This document shows positions 166-6,592 of a stretch of DNA of 12,352 nt, piece after piece. Made by a program: the position numbers and the translations under genes. Positions within the stretch are counted from its first letter, which is position 1, and each line of letters starts with the position of its first letter. This stretch comes from a virus (Duplodnaviria; Heunggongvirae; Uroviricota; Caudoviricetes). Below the pieces are notes generated by a model. It worked only from the letters and a program-made list of their open reading frames with translations, was not told where the DNA came from and made no database searches. The DNA lies in IMG/VR virus record IMGVR_UViG_3300021279_000011; one strand, given 5' to 3'.

Positions 166-450
166 ATGTCAGAAGTAAAACCCCTGGTCACTGCTGATGC
201 AGTGAAAGACGCGCTGCGCTCAGAAGATGTGCGTGGAGCACTGAAACAGAAAGTCCGCCAGACATTTGAAGCGCAGATAGAAGCAGATGTGGATGCGATT
301 CTGGATACGATACTGGGAGAGCAGCCAGGCGAACAGCCAGAGCCGGAACCGCAACCGGAAGATATCACCTCAGAAAACGGCGATATTCAACCGGAATCAC
401 CGGTGGTTGATGCGACTGAAGCACAACCTGAACCGGGCACCATGCTGTAA
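166..450 (+). CDS. Hypothetical small acidic protein (94 aa) upstream of the lysis cassette
   Basis: ATG at 166 in the frame of track ORF 4..450, stop TAA 448-450. Weak SD-like GAG about 8 nt upstream. The C-terminus is Pro/Glu-rich low complexity (PEPEPQPE). The in-frame sequence upstream of 166 (CCIFFRVG...) does not look protein-like, so 166 is the preferred start. Family not recognised. Confidence 0.4.
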   Translation: MSEVKPLVTADAVKDALRSEDVRGALKQKVRQTFEAQIEADVDAILDTILGEQPGEQPEPEPQPEDITSENGDIQPESPVVDATEAQPEPGTML

Positions 451-461
451 GGGTGAGTCAG

Positions 462-491
462 GGCCATCAGTAAAGTACTGCTGGCCTTTTT
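462..491 (+). terminator. Rho-independent terminator-like hairpin (possible tR' analogue) just upstream of the holin
   Basis: GGCCATCAG (462-470), loop TAAAGTA, CTGCTGGCC (478-486) pairs 8 of 9 positions, followed by TTTTT (487-491). It lies between the stop at 450 and the holin start. Confidence 0.5.
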
Positions 492-525
492 CATGTTGTG
501 AGCTTCCGTGTGCGGGAGACGGGGT

Positions 526-741
526 ATGTACCAGATGGAAAAAATCACAACAGGTGTGTCATACACCACGTCAGCGGTGGGAACGGGCTACTGGTTCCTG
601 CAGTTGCTGGACAAAGTCTCCCCGTCTCAGTGGGCGGCAATAGGCGTGCTGGGGAGTCTGCTGTTTGGGCTGCTGACATATCTGACGAACCTGTATTTCA
701 AAATCAAAGAGGACCGGCGTAAGGCCGCCCGGGGAGAGTGA
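526..741 (+). CDS. S: Class II holin, phage 21 S21-type pinholin (71-aa and 68-aa forms from dual start)
   Basis: The translation [71 protein letters not shown] closely matches the S21/EssD-type pinholin as recalled (two TMDs, C-terminal [13 protein letters not shown]). In-frame ATGs at 526 and 535 reproduce the S21 71/68 dual-start spacing. GGGAG at 514-518 lies 7 nt before ATG 526. Stop TGA 739-741. Confidence 0.85.
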
Positions 742-744
742 ATA

Positions 745-1302
745 ATGAACCATGAAGAAATGAATCAGCGCTTCAGTCGCCTGGAAAATGAAATTGCTGA
801 ACTGAATAAAAAACTGTCGACGCTGATGCCTTCTGAAGATGAAAAAAAACGCCGCGATGAGCAGTTTGCTGCGTTTGACGATTATTGTCGGAAAGTGATG
901 AGCAGAAATCTCGCAGAGTGTTTCAGTATTCATAATGATAATTTCAGTGAGCTGGAATGGGAGTGTAACCGGCCATCCTTTGTTGTATCCGGTGATGGTG
1001 TGAAAATAACCATCTCAGAAAATGGGAAAGTAACACCTCCATCGCACCAGCACAGTGAGGAGCTCATTGAATTTGCCATTGATTACCTGAAGAACAATAA
1101 AAAACAGGGGCTGATGCAGCGCATTGGTCGTTGCATGGGGTATCTGCAGGTAGCCGCTGAGATTGAAGCGCTGGCCAGTGGTGCGGACAAGGATTCAGTT
1201 GTGCGGGAGGCACTTCTTCGTGATTTTGATCATCTGCCCTTTAAAAAAGTGCCGGCTTACTGGCTTCATCCCGGACTGACTTATCTGAAAGTGCGTATTT
1301 AG
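745..1302 (+). CDS. Hypothetical 185-aa protein inserted between holin and endolysin (accessory/moron candidate)
   Basis: ATG 745 follows the holin stop by 3 nt, with GGGAGAG 6-8 nt upstream; stop TAG 1300-1302. Predicted soluble, with an N-terminal coiled-coil-like segment (RLENEIAELNKKLSTL) and no TM segment. Hand count of the first 120 nt gives about 43% GC, against about 52% for the first 120 nt of the portal gene. Family not recognised. Confidence 0.6.
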   Translation: MNHEEMNQRFSRLENEIAELNKKLSTLMPSEDEKKRRDEQFAAFDDYCRKVMSRNLAECFSIHNDNFSELEWECNRPSFVVSGDGVKITISENGKVTPPSHQHSEELIEFAIDYLKNNKKQGLMQRIGRCMGYLQVAAEIEALASGADKDSVVREALLRDFDHLPFKKVPAYWLHPGLTYLKVRI

Positions 1303-1338
1303 TGGGACTGGGACAGCGGCTGAATATTTAATATATCC

Positions 1339-1872
1339 ATGAACACAAAAATCAAATACGGCCTGTCGGCTGCCGTTCTGGCGTTGATTGCCGCAGGGGC
1401 TTCTGCGCCTGAAATCCTCGACCAGTTTCTGGATGAAAAGGAAGGCAACCACACCACGGCATACCGTGATGGTGCGGGTATCTGGACCATCTGCCGAGGT
1501 GCCATCATGGTGGATGGTAAGCCTGTGATTCCTGGCATGAAGCTGTCGAAGGAAAAATGCGACCAGGTTAACGCCATTGAGCGTGATAAGGCGCTGGCAT
1601 GGGTGGAGAAAAACATCAAAGTGCCACTGACTGAACCCCAGAAAGCGGGTATTGCGTCATTCTGTCCTTACAACATTGGCCCCGGTAAGTGTTTCAGCTC
1701 AACGTTTTACCGGAAACTGAACGCCGGAGACCGTAAAGGCGCATGTGCTGAAATTCGTCGCTGGATATATGACGGTGGTCAGGACTGCCGTATTCGTTCA
1801 AACAACTGTTACGGTCAGGTATCCCGTCGTGACCAGGAGAGCGCGCTGGCGTGCTGGGAAATCGACAGATAA
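1339..1872 (+). CDS. R: SAR endolysin (phage 21 R21 / RrrD-RrrQ-type lysozyme, glycoside hydrolase family 24)
   Basis: The translation MNTKIKYGLSAAVLALIAAGASAPEILDQFLDEKEGNHTTAYRDGAGIWTICRG... has the N-terminal signal-anchor-release hydrophobic segment and the E-x8-D-x5-T catalytic arrangement of T4-lysozyme-like SAR endolysins. It is near-identical over most of its length to E. coli cryptic-prophage lysozymes as I recall them. Stop TAA 1870-1872. Confidence 0.9.
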   Translation: MNTKIKYGLSAAVLALIAAGASAPEILDQFLDEKEGNHTTAYRDGAGIWTICRGAIMVDGKPVIPGMKLSKEKCDQVNAIERDKALAWVEKNIKVPLTEPQKAGIASFCPYNIGPGKCFSSTFYRKLNAGDRKGACAEIRRWIYDGGQDCRIRSNNCYGQVSRRDQESALACWEIDR

Positions 1873-1981
1873 GCAGAATATTTTGCTGAAAAATGAGGTT
1901 TGCTCACATGGACGTATAACACGAAATCCTGCAAATTGGCAAAATGTAAGTGAATAAAGTCAAAACAGTTGTTTAACACTC

Positions 1982-2008
1982 AGGCACCGTAATGGTGCCT
2001 TTGTCATT
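1982..2008 (+). terminator. Hairpin with T-rich tail downstream of the endolysin (possible terminator)
   Basis: AGGCACC (1982-1988), loop GTAAT, GGTGCCT (1994-2000) is a perfect 7-bp stem, followed by TTGTCATTT. Confidence 0.35.
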
Positions 2009-2011
2009 TCT

Positions 2012-2033
2012 GCGCATCTCACGCGCATCTCAC
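2012..2033. repeat. Perfect tandem direct repeat, 2 x 11 bp (GCGCATCTCAC)
   Basis: GCGCATCTCAC at 2012-2022 is repeated exactly at 2023-2033, about 110 bp upstream of the ATG at 2143. Confidence 0.6.
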
Positions 2034-2142
2034 AACACAGAACCTTTCAGGATGACCCTTGAGGATACCGGTTTGGCTGTCGGTGCCTTTCTGTGGGCTG
2101 GATTCCTGTGAGACAAGGTTCATCACTAAAAGGAAATAACCG

Positions 2143-2712
2143 ATGAATATGATGACCGTGCCGTTTCACGGCAACTCTCTTTATGTAGTTAACCATAATG
2201 GCGAGCCATACGTTCCCATGAAACCTGTCGTTGCGGGGATGGGGCTGGCCTGGCAATCACAGTTGGCTAAGTTAAGACAGCGTTTTGCGTCAACTATAAC
2301 GGAAATCGTTATGGTTGCTGAGGATGGGAAACAACGCAATATGGTGTCCATGCCACTTCGAAAACTTGCCGGCTGGCTACAAACTATTAATCCCAACAAA
2401 GTAAAACCCGAAATCCGCGATAAGGTCATCCGGTATCAGGAAGAGTGCGACGATGTTCTTTACGAGTACTGGACGAAGGGTTTTGTCGTTAATCCCCGTA
2501 AAATGAGCGTGATGGAAGAACTCAACCAGGCTTGTGCTGACATGAAACGGGATAAAAACATTGCCAGTGTGTTTGCTACCGGGCTGAATGAGTGGAAACA
2601 GGTTAAAGCCGCGCATGTATCAAAAATCCGTACGCTGGTAAATGAAGCGAATATGCTGATTGATTTTGTCCTGGCTGATACAGGCAAAGGGAAAATAACA
2701 AAGGCGGATTGA
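2143..2712 (+). CDS. Antirepressor-like protein (P22-type antirepressor N-terminal-domain-like), 189 aa
   Basis: The N-terminus MNMMTVPFHGNSLYVVNHNGEPYVPMKPVVAGMGLAWQSQLAKL resembles the N-terminal domain of P22-type antirepressor proteins, by recollection only. AAGGA lies about 9 nt upstream of ATG 2143. Stop TGA 2710-2712. Confidence 0.65.
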   Translation: MNMMTVPFHGNSLYVVNHNGEPYVPMKPVVAGMGLAWQSQLAKLRQRFASTITEIVMVAEDGKQRNMVSMPLRKLAGWLQTINPNKVKPEIRDKVIRYQEECDDVLYEYWTKGFVVNPRKMSVMEELNQACADMKRDKNIASVFATGLNEWKQVKAAHVSKIRTLVNEANMLIDFVLADTGKGKITKAD

Positions 2713-2858
2713 TGGGGTGGCTAATGATATCAGATAAACTCATAACGCTGGTGAAGAGCCTCTGTGTACTTGTCGGCATTTCATTTTCACTAATGCTGGT
2801 TGCTCTTTTTCTTTCCATGGCCTGGATGGCGTTGACTTCGGCAGGGCTGGTGGGGTGA
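2712..2858 (+). CDS. Small hydrophobic membrane protein (48 aa), translationally coupled, absent from the ORF track
   Basis: ATG 2712 overlaps the upstream stop (TGATG), with a second in-frame ATG at 2724. The translation MGWLMISDKLITLVKSLCVLVGISFSLMLVALFLSMAWMALTSAGLVG is almost entirely hydrophobic (one or two TM helices). Stop TGA 2856-2858 overlaps the Rz GTG start at 2855 (GTGA). Confidence 0.4.
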   Translation: MGWLMISDKLITLVKSLCVLVGISFSLMLVALFLSMAWMALTSAGLVG

Positions 2859-3328
2859 GCATAAACCGAATGCTTTCCGCGTTTACCGTTATTCTGCTGG
2901 TGGTCTGTGGTGCGCTTAGTCTGGGGCTGAATCATTACCGCGATAACGCCATAACCTACAAAGCGCAGCGCGATAAAAAAGTCAGTGAGCTGGAGCTGGC
3001 AAATGCAACCATTACTGATATGCAGCAGCGCCAGCGTGATGTTGCTGCACTTGATGCCAGATACTCGAGGGAATTAGCCGATGCGAGAGCTGAAAATGAA
3101 ACTCTGCGTGCTGATGTTGCCGCTGGTCGTAAGCGCCTGCGGATCAACGCCACCTGCCCCGGTACCGTGCGTGAAGCCACCGGCACCTCCGGCGTGGGCA
3201 ATGATGCCGCCGTCGAACTCTCTCCGGTTGCTGGACGAAACGTTCTCGGTATCAGAGACGGAATCATCAGCGACCAGGCAGCATTGAGAATGCTTCAGGA
3301 ATATATCCGCACTCAGTGTATTAACTAG
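2855..3328 (+). CDS. Rz: Rz i-spanin (inner-membrane spanin subunit)
   Basis: The translation ...LNHYRDNAITYKAQRDKKVSELELANATITDMQQRQRDVAALDARYSRELADARAENETLRADVAAGRKRL... closely matches lambda Rz as recalled (N-terminal TMD, coiled-coil periplasmic domain). Start is GTG 2855 or the in-frame ATG 2870. Stop TAG 3326-3328. Confidence 0.9.
   Translation: MSINRMLSAFTVILLVVCGALSLGLNHYRDNAITYKAQRDKKVSELELANATITDMQQRQRDVAALDARYSRELADARAENETLRADVAAGRKRLRINATCPGTVREATGTSGVGNDAAVELSPVAGRNVLGIRDGIISDQAALRMLQEYIRTQCIN
3081..3287 (+). CDS. Rz1: Rz1 o-spanin lipoprotein, embedded in the +1 frame of Rz
   Basis: MRELKMKLCVLMLPLVVSAC has the lipobox LVVSAC with Cys at residue 20, the same position as in lambda Rz1, followed by a proline-rich mature region (GSTPPAPVPCVKPPAPPAWAMMPP). 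Fully nested within Rz, as in lambda. Alternative start ATG 3096. Confidence 0.85.
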   Translation: MRELKMKLCVLMLPLVVSACGSTPPAPVPCVKPPAPPAWAMMPPSNSLRLLDETFSVSETESSATRQH

Positions 3329-3351
3329 TATTTTTGTTATTCGGAGAATGC

Positions 3352-3576
3352 ATGAAGAAATTACTGGTAACCGTAAAGCCTTTTCAGGGAACAATTCCGT
3401 TCCGTATTTTGCAGCGTGGTCGTGTTCTTGTTGAAGGTTCGTTCAGTGGTAAATGTACGCAATTACACTCCCGGACCTTTCAGGTGAATGCCACGAATGA
3501 AGAGCTAACCGTTGAGTGTACGATGAATGCCGCTAAATGCCGCATGGTATCTGCTGCATTACAGCCAGTGTGTTGA
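3352..3576 (+). CDS. Hypothetical 74-aa Cys-containing protein downstream of Rz
   Basis: ATG 3352 preceded by GGAGA (3343-3347). The translation is MKKLLVTVKPFQGTIPFRILQRGRVLVEGSFSGKCTQLHSRTFQVNATNEELTVECTMNAAKCRMVSAALQPVC. No signal peptide or lipobox, and not similar to lambda Bor. Coding status uncertain. Confidence 0.35.
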   Translation: MKKLLVTVKPFQGTIPFRILQRGRVLVEGSFSGKCTQLHSRTFQVNATNEELTVECTMNAAKCRMVSAALQPVC

Positions 3577-3778
3577 GCAAGCTTATTATCCATGCGCGGT
3601 ATCGTCGCCGTATTCCCGTATTAACAGAGACCGCAGCCCGACAGGGAGACTCCTCTGCGCGAGTGTGCGGGGATAATCAAAAACGATACACACCGGGGTT
3701 TACCGCGTTAACGGAGCGCGGCGTTGTCCCCTCATGGTCGCTGGTCCGGTGCGATGGTGGAAGAAACCGGACTACATT

Positions 3779-3803
3779 AAAAATGATAACCATTATCATT
3801 TTT
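3779..3803. repeat. Perfect 11-bp inverted repeat with 3-nt spacer (25-bp palindrome) upstream of the cosN-like motif
   Basis: AAAAATGATAA (3779-3789), CCA, TTATCATTTTT (3793-3803); the arms are exact reverse complements. A second inverted repeat, GTCCGGT (3744-3750) / ACCGGAC (3766-3772), lies just upstream. Confidence 0.6.
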
Positions 3804-3832
3804 GCGGGTCCTCCTGGTGGGGTGGGTCTGAA

Positions 3833-3851
3833 CACGGGGCGGGCGGCGCGG
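3833..3851. other. cosN-like cohesive-end motif (terminase cleavage region)
   Basis: ACGGGGCGGGCGGCGCGG resembles the lambda cos junction ACGGGGCGGCGACCT as recalled, at the lambda-equivalent position about 150 bp upstream of the small-terminase start and followed by an AT-rich cosB-like region (3900-3985). The exact nick positions cannot be read from sequence. Confidence 0.45.
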
Positions 3852-3995
3852 AAAAAGGCGCATTTTTTGATTTTTATGGCACCATCACCACCAGTGTAAG
3901 TTATTGATATATAGAAAAATAAAAATTTTTAGTGTCGAATTTGGTTGTTTTTTGTTCATCACTGGCGTGTATTTACATAATTTTCAGGGGGAGTT

Positions 3996-4472
3996 ATGGA
4001 TCGTGAATTAAAAAATCTGCATCTGAATATTTCCCAACTGGCCGCATTATCCGGTGCTCATCGACAGACTGTTGCGGCTCGGGTAAAAAACATAAGCCCA
4101 ACCGGTGGTCATGAGAGCAATCTCAAACTGTACCGACTGACAGATATCCTTGCCGAGCTGATGAAAGCTCCTCTGCCTGTAGATAACGAGGAAATGGATC
4201 CTCATGCGCGTAAAGCATGGTACCAGTCAGAACGTGACCGACTGAAATTTGAGCAGGAAACTGGTCAGCTTGTGCCAGTCAGTGATGTCAGGCGGTCCTT
4301 TTCTGTCGTGGTGAAAGCGATAGTTCAGGTACTGGAAACCTGGCCTGACCGGCTGGAGAGGGACAGGGGGTGGACCGCATCACAACTGAATGAAGTACAG
4401 ATTGTGGTTGATGAGATCCGCGACACACTGGAAAAGGCAGTCATTGACTGCTGTGATGAGGCCGATATGTGA
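3996..4472 (+). CDS. Nu1: Terminase small subunit (lambda Nu1-like)
   Basis: First gene after the cos-like region. N-terminal HTH-like segment (NISQLAALSGAHRQTVAARV) and overall Nu1-like organisation and size (158 aa). AGGGGGAG precedes ATG 3996. The stop overlaps the large-terminase start (ATGTGA). Confidence 0.8.
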   Translation: MDRELKNLHLNISQLAALSGAHRQTVAARVKNISPTGGHESNLKLYRLTDILAELMKAPLPVDNEEMDPHARKAWYQSERDRLKFEQETGQLVPVSDVRRSFSVVVKAIVQVLETWPDRLERDRGWTASQLNEVQIVVDEIRDTLEKAVIDCCDEADM

Positions 4473-6592
4473 ATCAGGTGAACGAGAGCCATAGCCGCGC
4501 ATCCGATATCTGGCGCGAAGTGGCCTCGCTGTTTCGCCCACCTGGCCGGTTACCAGTAGCGGAAGCCATCAGGCGTTATATGCGGGTACCACGGGGAGCC
4601 AATACTTCCGGTCCGTGGGAGTCATCGCTGACGCCCTATATGATTGACCCCATTAATACATTATCAGCCCGTGAATATGACGCGGTGGTGTTTGTGGGAC
4701 CTGCGCGAACCGGGAAAACCGAAGGGCTGATTGATGGCTGGATTGTGTACGGCATCATCTGTGATCCGGCGGATATGCTGGTGGTGCAGATGACTGAGAC
4801 GAAGGCGCGTGAGCATTCCAGAACGCGTCTTTCCAGGACGTTTCGCCACAGTCCGGAGGTCAGCAAGCGCCTCAGTCCTTCCCGTAATGACAACAACGTC
4901 CACGATAAAATGTTTCTTGACGGCTCCTTCCTGAAGATTGGCTGGCCGTCGATCACTGTATTTTCCTCTTCGGATTACCGTCGTGTGGCGCTGACGGATT
5001 ATGACCGTTTCCCTGAAAACGTGGACGGGGAAGGGGATGCCTTCACGCTGGCCTCAAAGCGTACCACCACCTTTATGTCCTCGGGGATGACCCTGGTCGA
5101 GAGTTCACCGGGGCGGGATATCACTGACACCAAATGGCGTTGTGGTGGCGCACATGAGGCACCGCCAACAACGGGGATCCTGTCACTGTATAACCGGGGA
5201 GACCGCCGCCGGTGGTACTGGCCGTGTCCGCACTGCGGGGAATATTTTCAGCCGGTGATGGATAACATGACCGGTTACCGGAATAACCCTGATTTTGTGG
5301 CTGCCGGGCAGGCGGCCCGCCTGATGTGTCCGCACTGCCGCGGCCTGATTGCTCCGGAACAGAAGCGTGAACTGAATAACCAGGGGATCTGGCTGCGGGA
5401 AGGCGAACGGGCAGCGGCGGATGGCAGTATCACCGGAACCCCCCGAAATTCCAGAATAGCAAGTTTTTGGATGGAGGGGCCGGCTGCGGCGTTTCAGACC
5501 TGGGAACAACTGATTTTTAAACTGCTGGCGGCAGAAGAAGAGTATGAGCGAACCGGCAGTGAAGAGACCCTGAAAGCGGTGGTGAACACCGATATCGGAC
5601 GACCCTATCTGCCCCGTTCAGCCACGGAACAGCGTAAAAGTGAACTGCTTGAACAGCGTGCCGAGCCGTTTCCCCGGCGATCTGTGCCGGATGGTGTGCG
5701 TTTTATTGAGGCAACGGTTGACGTACAGGGCGGTAAAAATCGCCGTTTTGTTGTGCAGATCACCGGATACGGAGAGCAGGGGGAACGCTGGATTGTTGAT
5801 CGCTACAACATCCGGCATTCACTGCGCTGCAGTCCCAACGGTGAAAGTCTGCCGGTTGATCCGGCGGCATATCCGGAGGACTGGGATTTGTTGCTGACGG
5901 ATGTGTTCCATAAAACATGGCCGCTGGCTTCTGATCCGGATGTGCGCATGCGTCTGATGGCCATGGCGGTGGATACGGGAGGGGAAGCCGGGGTGACAGA
6001 TAACGCCTATCGTTTCTGGCGTCGTTGCCGGAGTGACGGACTGGGCAACAGGGTGTTTCTGTTCAAGGGGGATGGTCTTCGCCGTGACAGGCTGATTAAC
6101 CGTACCTTCCCGGATAATACCGGCAGAAGTGCCCGCCGTGCCAGAGCCAGTGGCGATGTCGCGCTGTGGCTGGTTCAGACGGATGCGTTTAAGGACCGTG
6201 TAAATAATGCCCTGTGGCGTGACACACCAGGGCCGAACTATATCCACTTTCCCGACTGGCTGGGGCGGTGGTTTTACGATGAGCTGACCTATGAAGAGCG
6301 CGGCAGTGACGGAAAATGGCGAAAACCGGGCAGGGGCGCTAACGAGGCGTTTGACCTGCTGGTTTATGCGGATGCGCTTGCCGTTCTGCATGGTTACGAA
6401 AAGATCCGCTGGCCCTCCGCACCGGACTGGGCACAGCGGGAAACGTGGCTCGTCTTCCCGCAGGAGCGTTCTGGTGAAACGGTATCCCCGGAACTGACGG
6501 CCGGGGCAGAAAAACGCCGTCGCCGGAAGGAAAAACTGCGCACAGAGCGTGCGGAAGATAATCCATGGATAACATCAGGAGGCTGGTTGTGA
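4469..6592 (+). CDS. A: Terminase large subunit (lambda gpA family)
   Basis: 707 aa. Walker A-like VFVGPARTGKTE; the motif WYWPCPHCGEYFQ parallels lambda gpA ACPHCGEEQY. GTG start 4469 overlaps the Nu1 stop. Stop TGA 6590-6592. Confidence 0.92.
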   Translation: MNQVNESHSRASDIWREVASLFRPPGRLPVAEAIRRYMRVPRGANTSGPWESSLTPYMIDPINTLSAREYDAVVFVGPARTGKTEGLIDGWIVYGIICDPADMLVVQMTETKAREHSRTRLSRTFRHSPEVSKRLSPSRNDNNVHDKMFLDGSFLKIGWPSITVFSSSDYRRVALTDYDRFPENVDGEGDAFTLASKRTTTFMSSGMTLVESSPGRDITDTKWRCGGAHEAPPTTGILSLYNRGDRRRWYWPCPHCGEYFQPVMDNMTGYRNNPDFVAAGQAARLMCPHCRGLIAPEQKRELNNQGIWLREGERAAADGSITGTPRNSRIASFWMEGPAAAFQTWEQLIFKLLAAEEEYERTGSEETLKAVVNTDIGRPYLPRSATEQRKSELLEQRAEPFPRRSVPDGVRFIEATVDVQGGKNRRFVVQITGYGEQGERWIVDRYNIRHSLRCSPNGESLPVDPAAYPEDWDLLLTDVFHKTWPLASDPDVRMRLMAMAVDTGGEAGVTDNAYRFWRRCRSDGLGNRVFLFKGDGLRRDRLINRTFPDNTGRSARRARASGDVALWLVQTDAFKDRVNNALWRDTPGPNYIHFPDWLGRWFYDELTYEERGSDGKWRKPGRGANEAFDLLVYADALAVLHGYEKIRWPSAPDWAQRETWLVFPQERSGETVSPELTAGAEKRRRRKEKLRTERAEDNPWITSGGWL

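What the first reader, a model, noticed from the sequence alone, without database searches (positions are those of the whole stretch)
2712..2858. Unlisted 48-aa hydrophobic micro-ORF bridging the antirepressor-like gene and Rz
This ORF is below the size cut-off of the supplied track. It is bounded by two start/stop overlaps (TGATG upstream, GTGA downstream), a pattern typical of translational coupling, and encodes an almost entirely hydrophobic peptide. Small membrane peptides in lysis cassettes can act as antiholins, lysis inhibitors or toxins. Alternatively, it may simply be the untranslated leader of Rz if Rz starts at ATG 2870.
Basis: seen in the sequence. Interest (0 to 1): 0.5.

Follow-up and report, generated by a model that had tools for sequence, protein, structure and literature searches.

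The report
Small membrane-protein gene before Rz
The 48-codon reading frame is a real, conserved gene for a tiny single-helix membrane protein that sits in the lysis cassette of many E. coli prophages, including Shiga-toxin phages; databases already list it as a hypothetical protein and nobody knows what it does.

Summary
The ORF exists as described: 2712-2858, 48 aa, TGATG overlap with the ant stop and GTGA overlap with a GTG in the Rz frame. It is a real gene, not an Rz leader.

- All 272 copies collected from 266 loci are intact and gap-free. The 40 distinct sequences give dN/dS 0.28 (CI 0.18-0.42); a Citrobacter-Cronobacter pair gives 0.14.
- The conserved block begins at the second ATG (2724, 44 aa) and ends at the stop. 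A Shine-Dalgarno-like site precedes that ATG in the three main upstream contexts.
- The next gene always starts within about 11 nt of the stop or overlaps it.
- AlphaFold2 predicts one helix (residues 2-43).
- The gene is already catalogued: PGAP WP_000539795.1, PHROG phrog_4906 (unknown function), and a paralogue, XECs191, with marginal ribosome-profiling support in strain Sakai.
- It occurs in 1746 of 5426 complete E. coli genomes, up to 11 copies each, and in Citrobacter and Cronobacter prophages.
- It always lies after the endolysin. It occurs with two unrelated holin/endolysin sets, which argues against a holin-specific antiholin or a SAR-endolysin releasin.

My best guess is a non-essential inner-membrane accessory factor of late lysis. 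The function is untested.

The parts
2712..2858 (+).
   Evidence: Translation. PGAP CDS WP_000539795.1 at the same place in NZ_AP018488. Full-length match to phrog_4906, E 3.9e-28.
2724..2858 (+). Evolutionarily conserved core ORF (44 aa, MISDKL...LVG). Predicted single transmembrane helix, with D8/K9/K15 on the N-side (numbering of the 48-aa form).
   Evidence: The conserved block starts at this ATG in all upstream contexts. L015 and L087 lose the upstream ATG frame but keep this one. dN/dS 0.28. AlphaFold2 helix 2-43, pLDDT 89.5. Hydropathy.
2701..2708 (+). Shine-Dalgarno-like AAGGCGGA upstream of ATG 2712
   Evidence: Anti-SD duplex -7.1 kcal/mol. Sequence.
2714..2720 (+). Shine-Dalgarno-like GGGGTGG upstream of ATG 2724 (short spacer)
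   Evidence: Anti-SD duplex -7.1 kcal/mol. Contexts without ant have stronger sites, -8.1 to -11.3 kcal/mol.
2143..2712 (+). Ant-like gene (P22_AR_N + ORF11CD3). A variable insert upstream, not an obligate partner of the micro-ORF.
   Evidence: Pfam PF10547 E 1.2e-45. The micro-ORF occurs without it.
2855..3328 (+). Rz i-spanin. The probable start is GTG 2855, overlapping the micro-ORF stop (GTGA). PGAP instead calls ATG 2870.
   Evidence: PF03245 E 2.4e-39 and phrog_13 aligned from residue 4. L071 and L072 have ATT in place of the 2870 ATG, and L072 Rz reads MVSINRILSAF. The GTG start supplies a basic residue (R5) before the transmembrane domain.
3096..3287 (+). Rz1 o-spanin, embedded in Rz in another frame
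   Evidence: PF06085 E 6.9e-21 on the 3081-3287 ORF. The choice of the internal ATG 3096 as start is my reading from the lipoprotein signal sequence in the translation.
1339..1872 (+). R21-type lysozyme with a hydrophobic N-terminal (SAR-like) segment
   Evidence: PF00959 E 3.5e-26. N-terminal sequence.
526..741 (+). S21-type class II holin with a dual-start motif (MYQMEK)
   Evidence: PF04971 E 3.9e-33. Sequence.
3352..3576 (+). 74-aa ORF after Rz. It is syntenic with a homologous ORF that follows the lipoprotein gene in the second cassette type.
   Evidence: phrog_2571 E 2.8e-28. Homologue in L179 at 3996-4220. Architecture tally.

Best explanation
The micro-ORF is a genuine protein-coding gene of the phage late (lysis) operon. 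It encodes a 44-48 residue single-pass inner-membrane protein, probably N-in, with almost nothing outside the bilayer.

It would be transcribed with S, R and Rz. It is translated from its own Shine-Dalgarno site: ATG 2724 is the conserved start, and ATG 2712 is usable in this ant context. Its stop abuts or overlaps the start of the next gene (here Rz GTG 2855), so ribosomes finishing it can pass directly into the downstream gene.

Its most likely role is a non-essential accessory factor acting in the inner membrane during the last steps of lysis. It could tune timing or membrane state rather than being a holin, endolysin or spanin itself.

Shown: coding constraint, conserved position, start signals, gene juxtaposition, helical hydrophobic nature, wide distribution.
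Inferred: membrane insertion and topology, co-transcription, translational coupling.
Guessed from position and precedent only: a role in lysis.

My probabilities: real gene about 0.9; inner-membrane single-pass protein about 0.8; coupled to the downstream gene about 0.6; lysis-modulating function about 0.4.
For: - Integrity: 272 copies in 266 loci are all intact and gap-free, with 40 distinct sequences.
- Purifying selection: sense-frame dN/dS is 0.28 (CI 0.18-0.42). Other frames give 0.88-1.58, apart from the antisense frame that shares third positions.
- Distant pair: Citrobacter versus Cronobacter has 13 synonymous and 7 non-synonymous differences, dN/dS 0.14, binomial P about 3e-4. The TM + C-terminal part gives 0.04.
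- Module boundaries: the mosaic boundaries coincide with the ORF's start and stop. There are three main unrelated upstream contexts and four downstream contexts.
- Start signals: SD-like sites of -8.1 to -11.3 kcal/mol precede the conserved ATG in contexts without ant. The 5th percentile of background is -8.1.
- Ribosome profiling: a paralogue with 81% amino-acid identity, XECs191, passed the authors' translation thresholds in strain Sakai, though only marginally (RIBO RPKM 12.6, RCV 0.43, coverage 0.55). They predicted it to be an inner-membrane protein (PMC5597208).
- Structure: AlphaFold2 gives one helix, residues 2-43, pLDDT 89.5.
- No RNA explanation: the region folds worse than shuffled sequence (z = +1.83) and has no Rfam match.
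- Position: always after the endolysin and directly before Rz/Rz1, a small lipoprotein gene, or another small membrane-protein gene.
- Precedents: small membrane proteins with unexpected lysis roles exist, namely Lcc6 and the Mu releasin.
Against: - No experiment addresses the function.
- The ribosome-profiling support is weak, comes from an uninduced culture, and concerns a paralogue rather than this copy.
- Lambda, phage 21 and the K-12 Qin prophage lyse or carry Rz without any such gene (lambda and phage 21 from my own knowledge). So it cannot be essential for the canonical pathway.
- Among close E. coli variants, dN/dS approaches 1 (for example L011-L072 0.98). Constraint on exact sequence is therefore loose, as expected for a generic transmembrane helix.
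- The gene occurs with two unrelated holin/endolysin sets, which fits poorly with any partner-specific mechanism.
- Its position next to known moron slots (ant, bor-like genes) also fits a function unrelated to lysis.
Confidence: 0.5

Rival explanations
1. It is a real small membrane protein but a 'moron' unrelated to lysis. For example, it could be a superinfection-exclusion or envelope-modifying peptide that benefits the lysogen or the infected cell, and it merely rides in the variable slot between R and Rz.
For: The R-Rz interval is a hot spot for inserted accessory genes: ant, a KilA-like gene, a Dam-like methyltransferase, and small membrane-protein genes. The gene is dispensable for canonical lysis cassettes. 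Low-level RNA and ribosome signal was seen in an uninduced lysogen culture.
Against: No promoter-like site was found in 400-4100 on either strand, and no terminator follows the ORF. Its stop is fused to the next lysis gene, unlike typical self-contained morons. Unlike the variable inserts, it is the constant element across all architectures, always right before the last-step genes. It has no PADLOC match.
Confidence: 0.2
2. The peptide is a membrane-active toxin-like helix, comparable to type I toxins or holin-like peptides. It leaks protons late in infection and so helps trigger whichever holin is present.
For: It is a very short, very hydrophobic single helix. It occurs with unrelated holins, and a general effect on the proton-motive force would suit all of them (holin triggering by energy poisons is established knowledge). 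It has a weak sub-threshold resemblance to a holin PHROG, phrog_13249, E 0.029.
Against: The holin match is not significant and there is no Pfam or NCBIfam hit. No antisense promoter or RNA typical of type I systems was found. Up to 11 copies are tolerated per genome.
Confidence: 0.12
3. The ORF is translated, but only the act of translation matters. It would be a coupling or leader ORF that delivers ribosomes to the next gene and keeps its start region unfolded, with the peptide itself having no function.
For: The stop overlaps or lies 11 nt or less from the next start in every context. The invariant 3' end GGGGTGA doubles as an SD-like sequence or GTG start for the downstream gene. In cassettes without inserts, R and Rz themselves overlap.
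Against: The amino-acid sequence is under purifying selection, especially in the transmembrane and C-terminal part: dN/dS 0.04 between Citrobacter and Cronobacter, with 8 synonymous and 1 non-synonymous change. Length is constant to within one codon across all 272 copies. A pure coupling ORF would not need a conserved 43-residue hydrophobic helix.
Confidence: 0.1
4. It is not a gene. It would be an untranslated leader of Rz or a chance ORF, or the real gene would be the antisense ORF 2603-2935.
For: The original 933W and VT1-Sakai records do not annotate it. The antisense frame is also open and shows low dN/dS, 0.35.
Against: Coding signal in the sense frame and conserved ATG and SD-like signals argue for the sense ORF. 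The block persists where Rz is not adjacent or was not found. The antisense frame shares third codon positions with the sense frame, so its low dN/dS is an expected mirror effect. Its start and length are not conserved: 110, 34, 41, 68 and 65 aa in different loci. It would also run against the late operon.
Confidence: 0.04

Closest known systems
Lcc6 of Shewanella prophage LambdaSo (bioRxiv 10.1101/2024.01.23.576932)
   Same: A small (65 aa) single-pass membrane protein of a lambda-like phage that uses a pinholin and a SAR endolysin. [quoted passage not shown]
   Different: Lcc6 is encoded far from the lysis cassette, next to xis. It has a 43-residue cytoplasmic tail and is strictly required for lysis. 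The micro-ORF lies inside the cassette, has almost no extramembrane part, and is clearly dispensable in related cassettes.
Phage Mu releasin gp25 (DUF2730; PMC9239132)
   Same: A membrane-tethered small protein encoded near the endolysin and spanin genes that helps a SAR endolysin leave the membrane.
   Different: gp25 is 99 aa with a 73-residue cytoplasmic domain and belongs to DUF2730. The micro-ORF has no Pfam hit. It also occurs with a soluble GH108 endolysin that has no SAR domain.
Phage P2 LysA (my own knowledge, not checked here)
   Same: A non-essential membrane-protein gene placed between the endolysin gene and the spanin genes, reported to affect lysis timing.
   Different: LysA is about three times longer with several transmembrane segments. 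No sequence relationship was tested.
Antiholins (lambda S107, phage 21 S71, T4 RI, P1 LydB)
   Same: Small membrane or periplasmic proteins of lysis cassettes that set the time of lysis.
   Different: Antiholins are specific for their holin and are often alternative-start forms of it. The window's holin already has a dual-start motif. The micro-ORF accompanies two unrelated holin sets.
Catalogue entries for this same ORF: PHROG phrog_4906, PGAP WP_000539795.1 and relatives, XECs191 of Hücker et al. 2017 (PMC5597208)
   Same: The same family: a full-length HMM match at E 3.9e-28, an identical CDS, and a paralogue with 81% identity.
   Different: None of these entries assigns a function.

Membership tests
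PHROG phrog_4906 (unknown function) | Full-length match to the family profile | tested here: met
   E 3.9e-28, residues 1-48 on profile positions 2-49 of 49.
Protein-coding gene (as opposed to leader or chance ORF) | Frame kept open without indels across diverged homologues, with an excess of synonymous change in that frame | tested here: met
   272 of 272 copies intact. dN/dS 0.28, CI 0.18-0.42. Citrobacter versus Cronobacter 13 synonymous and 7 non-synonymous, P about 3e-4.
Protein-coding gene (as opposed to leader or chance ORF) | Direct evidence of translation | tested here: inconclusive
   Only a paralogue (XECs191) was measured. It barely passed the published RIBOseq thresholds, in an uninduced culture.
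Holin | Match to a holin family, or being the only membrane protein able to gate the endolysin | tested here: not met
   No Pfam holin hit. phrog_13249 reached only E 0.029. Every cassette already has recognised holins.
Holin-specific antiholin | Consistent pairing with one holin family | tested here: not met
   Found with the S21-type class II holin and also with the Phage_holin_8 + Phage_holin_3_7 pair.
Releasin (Mu gp25, DUF2730) | DUF2730 domain, and pairing with a SAR endolysin | tested here: not met
   No Pfam hit. About 50 copies sit next to a GH108 endolysin with no N-terminal hydrophobic segment.
i-spanin (Rz-like) | N-terminal transmembrane domain plus a periplasmic domain long enough to reach the o-spanin | tested here: not met
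   Only about 10 residues follow the hydrophobic core. There is no match to Rz families.
Type I toxin-antitoxin toxin | Small hydrophobic toxin with an overlapping or adjacent antisense RNA gene and its own promoter | tested here: inconclusive
   No promoter-like sites on either strand in 400-4100 and no Rfam match. However, the scan is a simple consensus search, and toxicity was not tested.
Lcc6-like lysis factor | Sequence similarity to Lcc6, and a requirement for lysis | not tested
The requirement for lysis needs an experiment.
Known anti-phage defence proteins (PADLOC) | Match to a PADLOC model | tested here: not met
   No family at E 0.1 or better.

The most novel reading that the evidence does not exclude
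The family could be a new, holin-independent component of Gram-negative phage lysis. It would be a minimal inner-membrane helix that works with whatever gene follows it (Rz/Rz1, or a 60-aa outer-membrane lipoprotein in cassettes where no spanin was recognised) to control or execute the last, outer-membrane step. In that case it would also influence the timing of Shiga-toxin release.
Probability: 0.15. Interest if true: 0.7.

Novelty: new member of a known kind. Interest (0 to 1): 0.4.

Why it matters
In Stx phages, lysis timing sets both phage yield and the release of Shiga toxin. This gene sits inside that cassette in about a third of complete E. coli genomes, up to 11 copies in EHEC strains, yet it is missing from the classic 933W and VT1-Sakai annotations and has never been tested.

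Recent work (Mu releasin, LambdaSo Lcc6) shows that small membrane proteins can be unexpected lysis factors. This family is a cheap and well-defined candidate for the same kind of experiment.

If it turns out to be unrelated to lysis, it is still one of the most widespread uncharacterised small membrane proteins of E. coli prophages.

Tried and rejected
- Pfam, NCBIfam and PADLOC scans of the peptide gave nothing significant.
- Rfam and RNA folding of 2690-2890 showed no structured RNA (z = +1.83).
- The promoter scan found no sigma-70-like site in 400-4100.
- The genome-contig scan (one genome per species) found only a 328-bp contig labelled Xanthomonas pisi, which looks like E. coli contamination.
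- An exhaustive HMM search of 1.84 billion representative proteins found 30 hits, apparently almost all fragments or variants of the same narrow family, so there are no remote relatives to lean on.
- Literature searches for the accession, the peptide, XECs191 and phrog_4906 in main texts found nothing. The Stx-phage genomics paper PMC8136144 does not mention the ORF.
- K-12 Qin has no copy.
- I considered and rejected the antisense ORF 2603-2935 as the real gene. Its low dN/dS is the expected mirror of the sense frame, and its start and length are not conserved.
- I considered a split or minimal i-spanin and rejected it for lack of a periplasmic domain.
- I did not run a fold search, because a single helix carries no fold information.

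Full report
**Setting.** The window is the late region of an E. coli O157:H7 lambdoid prophage; positions 2600-2960 are 100% identical to several O157:H7 chromosomes. Reading rightwards:
- S21-type class II holin, 508/526-741 (PF04971)
- a 185-aa ORF of unknown function, 745-1302
- R21-type lysozyme with a hydrophobic N-terminus, 1339-1872
- a 270-nt gap containing a terminator-like hairpin
- an Ant-like gene, 2143-2712 (P22_AR_N + ORF11CD3)
- the micro-ORF, 2712-2858
- Rz (PF03245) with embedded Rz1 (PF06085)
- a 74-aa ORF, 3352-3576
- the terminase genes.

- 2712-2858 translates to a 48-residue peptide, MGWLMISDKLITLVKSLCVLVGISFSLMLVALFLSMAWMALTSAGLVG.
- Its ATG shares one base with the ant stop (TGATG). 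Its TGA overlaps a GTG that opens the Rz frame (GTGA).
PGAP annotates this exact CDS as WP_000539795.1, hypothetical protein. It matches phrog_4906 (unknown function) over its full length at E 3.9e-28. Some GenBank phage records call it a hypothetical protein, while the classic 933W and VT1-Sakai records omit it.

**It is a gene, not a leader.** I collected 266 loci holding 272 copies from IMG/VR, GenBank phages, RefSeq E. coli genomes and other assemblies.
- Every copy is open, has no gaps, and is the same length to within one codon. There are 40 distinct nucleotide sequences.
- Nei-Gojobori dN/dS summed over all pairs is 0.28 in the ORF's frame (bootstrap 95% interval 0.18-0.42; none of 1000 resamples reached 1).
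- The other frames give 0.88-1.58. The exception is the antisense frame that shares third codon positions, which mirrors the signal at 0.35.
- The most diverged pair, Citrobacter portucalensis versus Cronobacter, differs by 13 synonymous and 7 non-synonymous changes (dN/dS 0.14, binomial P about 3e-4). Over the transmembrane and C-terminal part it differs by 8 synonymous and 1 non-synonymous change (0.04).
- Among very close E. coli variants the ratio is near 1. Constraint is mainly on keeping a hydrophobic helix; the replacements are almost all between L/I/V/M/F/A/S/T/G.
- No RNA explanation offers itself. The region folds worse than shuffled sequence (z = +1.83) and the window has no Rfam match.

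**Where the gene really starts and ends.**
- The conserved block begins at the second ATG (window 2724, M-I-S-D-K-L) and ends at GGGGTGA.
- Upstream of the block there are three main unrelated contexts (a few loci add a KilA-like gene further upstream): the ant stop (this window), a 60-aa membrane-protein gene, or a roughly 31-aa membrane-protein gene.
- In the two contexts without ant, the ATG is preceded by AAGGGAGGA or AAGGGG at a sensible distance. Anti-SD duplex energies are -8.1 to -11.3 kcal/mol, at or beyond the 5th percentile of background.
- In this window both ATGs have moderate sites (-7.1 kcal/mol).
- Two natural variants disable the first ATG but keep the core: L015 has a 1-nt deletion and L087 an in-frame TAG. 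So the four extra residues MGWL are context-specific, and the family is really 43-44 aa.

**What follows the stop.** Four different genes can follow, always within 11 nt or overlapping:
- Rz of the window's type, at the GTGA overlap or at an ATG 11 nt on
- Rz of the 933W type, at an ATG 7 nt on
- a small membrane-protein gene that opens at the same GTGA
- in a second cassette type, a lipoprotein gene whose ATG lies 4 nt after the stop.

This constant juxtaposition is what one expects of translational coupling, though coupling itself is inferred.

**The Rz start.** PGAP starts Rz at ATG 2870. In L071 and L072 that codon is ATT. L072 Rz begins ATG-GTG-AGC-ATA-AAC-CGA (MVSINRILSAF), so the SINR segment is translated there. 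Starting at GTG 2855 gives MSINRMLSAF..., which puts a basic residue before the transmembrane domain, as in lambda Rz (my own knowledge) and 933W-type Rz (MNRV...). The ATG 2870 form has none.

**The product.** AlphaFold2 with the family alignment gives one helix, residues 2-43, at pLDDT 89.5. The hydrophobic core is residues 16-34 (mean Kyte-Doolittle 2.57). D8, K9 and K15 lie on the N-side, and the C-side has no charge, or a single Arg in some subtypes. That suggests a single-pass protein, weakly N-in, with about ten residues beyond the membrane core. Hücker et al. predicted 'inner membrane' for the paralogue.

**Experimental evidence.** Hücker et al. 2017 (PMC5597208) list a paralogue as novel gene XECs191 (Sakai 1945984-1946130, MMGWLMISDKLITLVKSLCVLVGISFLVMLVAIFFSTAWRVLTLSGLVG). 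In LB, RNA RPKM was 30.0, RIBOseq RPKM 12.6, ribosomal coverage value 0.43 and coverage 0.55. This just clears their thresholds (1 RPKM, 50% coverage, RCV 0.25) in LB and fails them in the two BHI conditions. It is weak support and was obtained without prophage induction.

**Distribution and context.**
- The 135-nt core hits 1746 of 5426 complete E. coli genomes at 4652 places, up to 11 per genome. Every sampled hit is annotated as a hypothetical protein.
- Protein searches find only Escherichia, Shigella, Citrobacter and Cronobacter.
- An exhaustive profile search of 1.84 billion representatives returns only 30 hits, apparently almost all fragments or variants of this narrow family.

Tally of architectures:

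| Architecture | Approximate copies |
|---|---|
| S21 holin - R21 lysozyme - ant - [micro] - Rz | 90 |
| S21 holin - R21 lysozyme - 31-aa TM - [micro] - 60-aa TM - Rz | 75 |
| S21 holin - R21 lysozyme - 60-aa TM - [micro] - Rz | 25 |
| holin_8 - holin_3_7 - GH108 endolysin - 60-aa or 31-aa TM - [micro] - 60-aa lipoprotein | 50 |

Occasional KilA-like or Dam methyltransferase inserts also occur. The micro-ORF is the constant element; ant and the other small genes vary. It therefore belongs neither to the ant module nor strictly to Rz.

**What this says about mechanism.**
- The gene is expressed, by inference, from the late transcript. No promoter-like site was found nearby and no terminator separates it from Rz.
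- Because it accompanies two unrelated holin sets and both a SAR-type and a soluble endolysin, a holin-specific antiholin and a SAR releasin are both unlikely.
- It has no periplasmic domain, so it cannot be an i-spanin.
- It is absent from lambda, phage 21 (my own knowledge) and K-12 Qin, so it is not essential to the canonical pathway.
- What remains is an accessory inner-membrane factor of the final stage of lysis, or a general membrane-active peptide, or a membrane moron unrelated to lysis, or a coupling ORF. The last fits poorly with selection on the peptide.
- Precedents for unexpected small membrane lysis factors are the Mu releasin (PMC9239132) and LambdaSo Lcc6, a 65-aa membrane protein needed at the pinholin step (bioRxiv 10.1101/2024.01.23.576932). 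P2 LysA occupies the same slot between endolysin and spanin genes (my own knowledge).
- I put about 0.9 on 'real gene', 0.8 on 'inner-membrane single-pass protein', 0.6 on coupling, and 0.4 on a lysis-modulating role.

**Novelty and score.** The object is already catalogued but uncharacterised, and the classic Stx-phage annotations miss it. The analysis adds:
- clear evidence of coding constraint
- the true conserved start
- the independence from ant
- the link to a second cassette type in which no spanin was recognised
- a corrected Rz start.

A phage-lysis specialist would find it a reasonable candidate for a knockout, not a surprise. Interest 0.4.

Noticed in passing
window 2855-2872: The Rz start is probably GTG 2855 (MSINRMLSAF...), not the ATG 2870 that PGAP calls. 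Two homologues have ATT at the 2870 position, and one of them begins ATG-GTG-AGC-ATA-AAC-CGA. The GTG form has a basic residue before the transmembrane domain.
   Followed up: partly
L172-L185, L186-L237 (e.g. L179 1368-4220; L178 2435-4322): A second lysis-cassette type occurs in E. coli, E. albertii, Citrobacter and Cronobacter prophages: Phage_holin_8 + Phage_holin_3_7 + a soluble GH108 endolysin, then a 60-aa membrane protein (phrog_1115), the micro-ORF homologue, and a 60-aa predicted outer-membrane lipoprotein (phrog_7528, lipobox LVGC). No Rz/Rz1 was recognised. By synteny with the 74-aa ORF that follows, the lipoprotein sits in the Rz/Rz1 slot. What disrupts the outer membrane in these phages is unclear.
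   Followed up: partly
L172-L176, about 1241-2359: The Cronobacter prophages carry heat-labile-enterotoxin-like A and B subunit genes (PF01375 and PF06453, LT-IIB) between the Q antiterminator and the holin genes. This is the same slot that stx occupies in Stx phages.
   Followed up: no
L005 2801-2983; L006 3096-3251; L082 2358-2495; L179 3301-3483: Two further small membrane-protein gene families accompany the micro-ORF wherever ant is absent: a 60-aa type (...VTDDISRALAFAIKWVAVGIAVSP...) and a roughly 31-45-aa type (...WKFLLVWLIPFLWVVARLITAIKG). The 60-aa type can lie before or after the micro-ORF. Both are PHROG 'unknown function'.
   Followed up: partly
window 1982-2000, in the 1873-2142 gap: A terminator-like hairpin (AGGCACCGTAATGGTGCCT followed by a T-run) lies between the lysozyme gene and ant. 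In strain PV15-279 an IS1203 element lies between the lysozyme and ant genes (L004 1579-2792).
   Followed up: no
window 2603-2935, minus strand: A 110-aa antisense ORF spans the whole micro-ORF. That frame is open in all homologues and shows low dN/dS (0.35), because it shares third codon positions with the sense frame. Its start and length are not conserved, so I read it as a by-product.
   Followed up: yes
L072-L074, L088 (e.g. L072 2771-3538): A 255-aa Dam-like DNA methyltransferase (DPPY motif), together with a short membrane-protein ORF, is inserted between the micro-ORF and Rz in some prophages.
   Followed up: no
window 745-1302: A 185-aa ORF (phrog_1085, unknown function) lies between the holin and the lysozyme. 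Related prophages carry a shorter YdfR-family gene there, and 933W has nothing.
   Followed up: no
L087 (NZ_JPLE01000251.1): A 328-bp contig in a Xanthomonas pisi assembly carries an E. coli-type ant end plus the micro-ORF. It is most likely contamination of that assembly.
   Followed up: no
window 508-741: The holin has the MYQMEK dual-start arrangement typical of S21 (a longer antiholin form and a shorter holin form), so the cassette already has a built-in antiholin.
   Followed up: no
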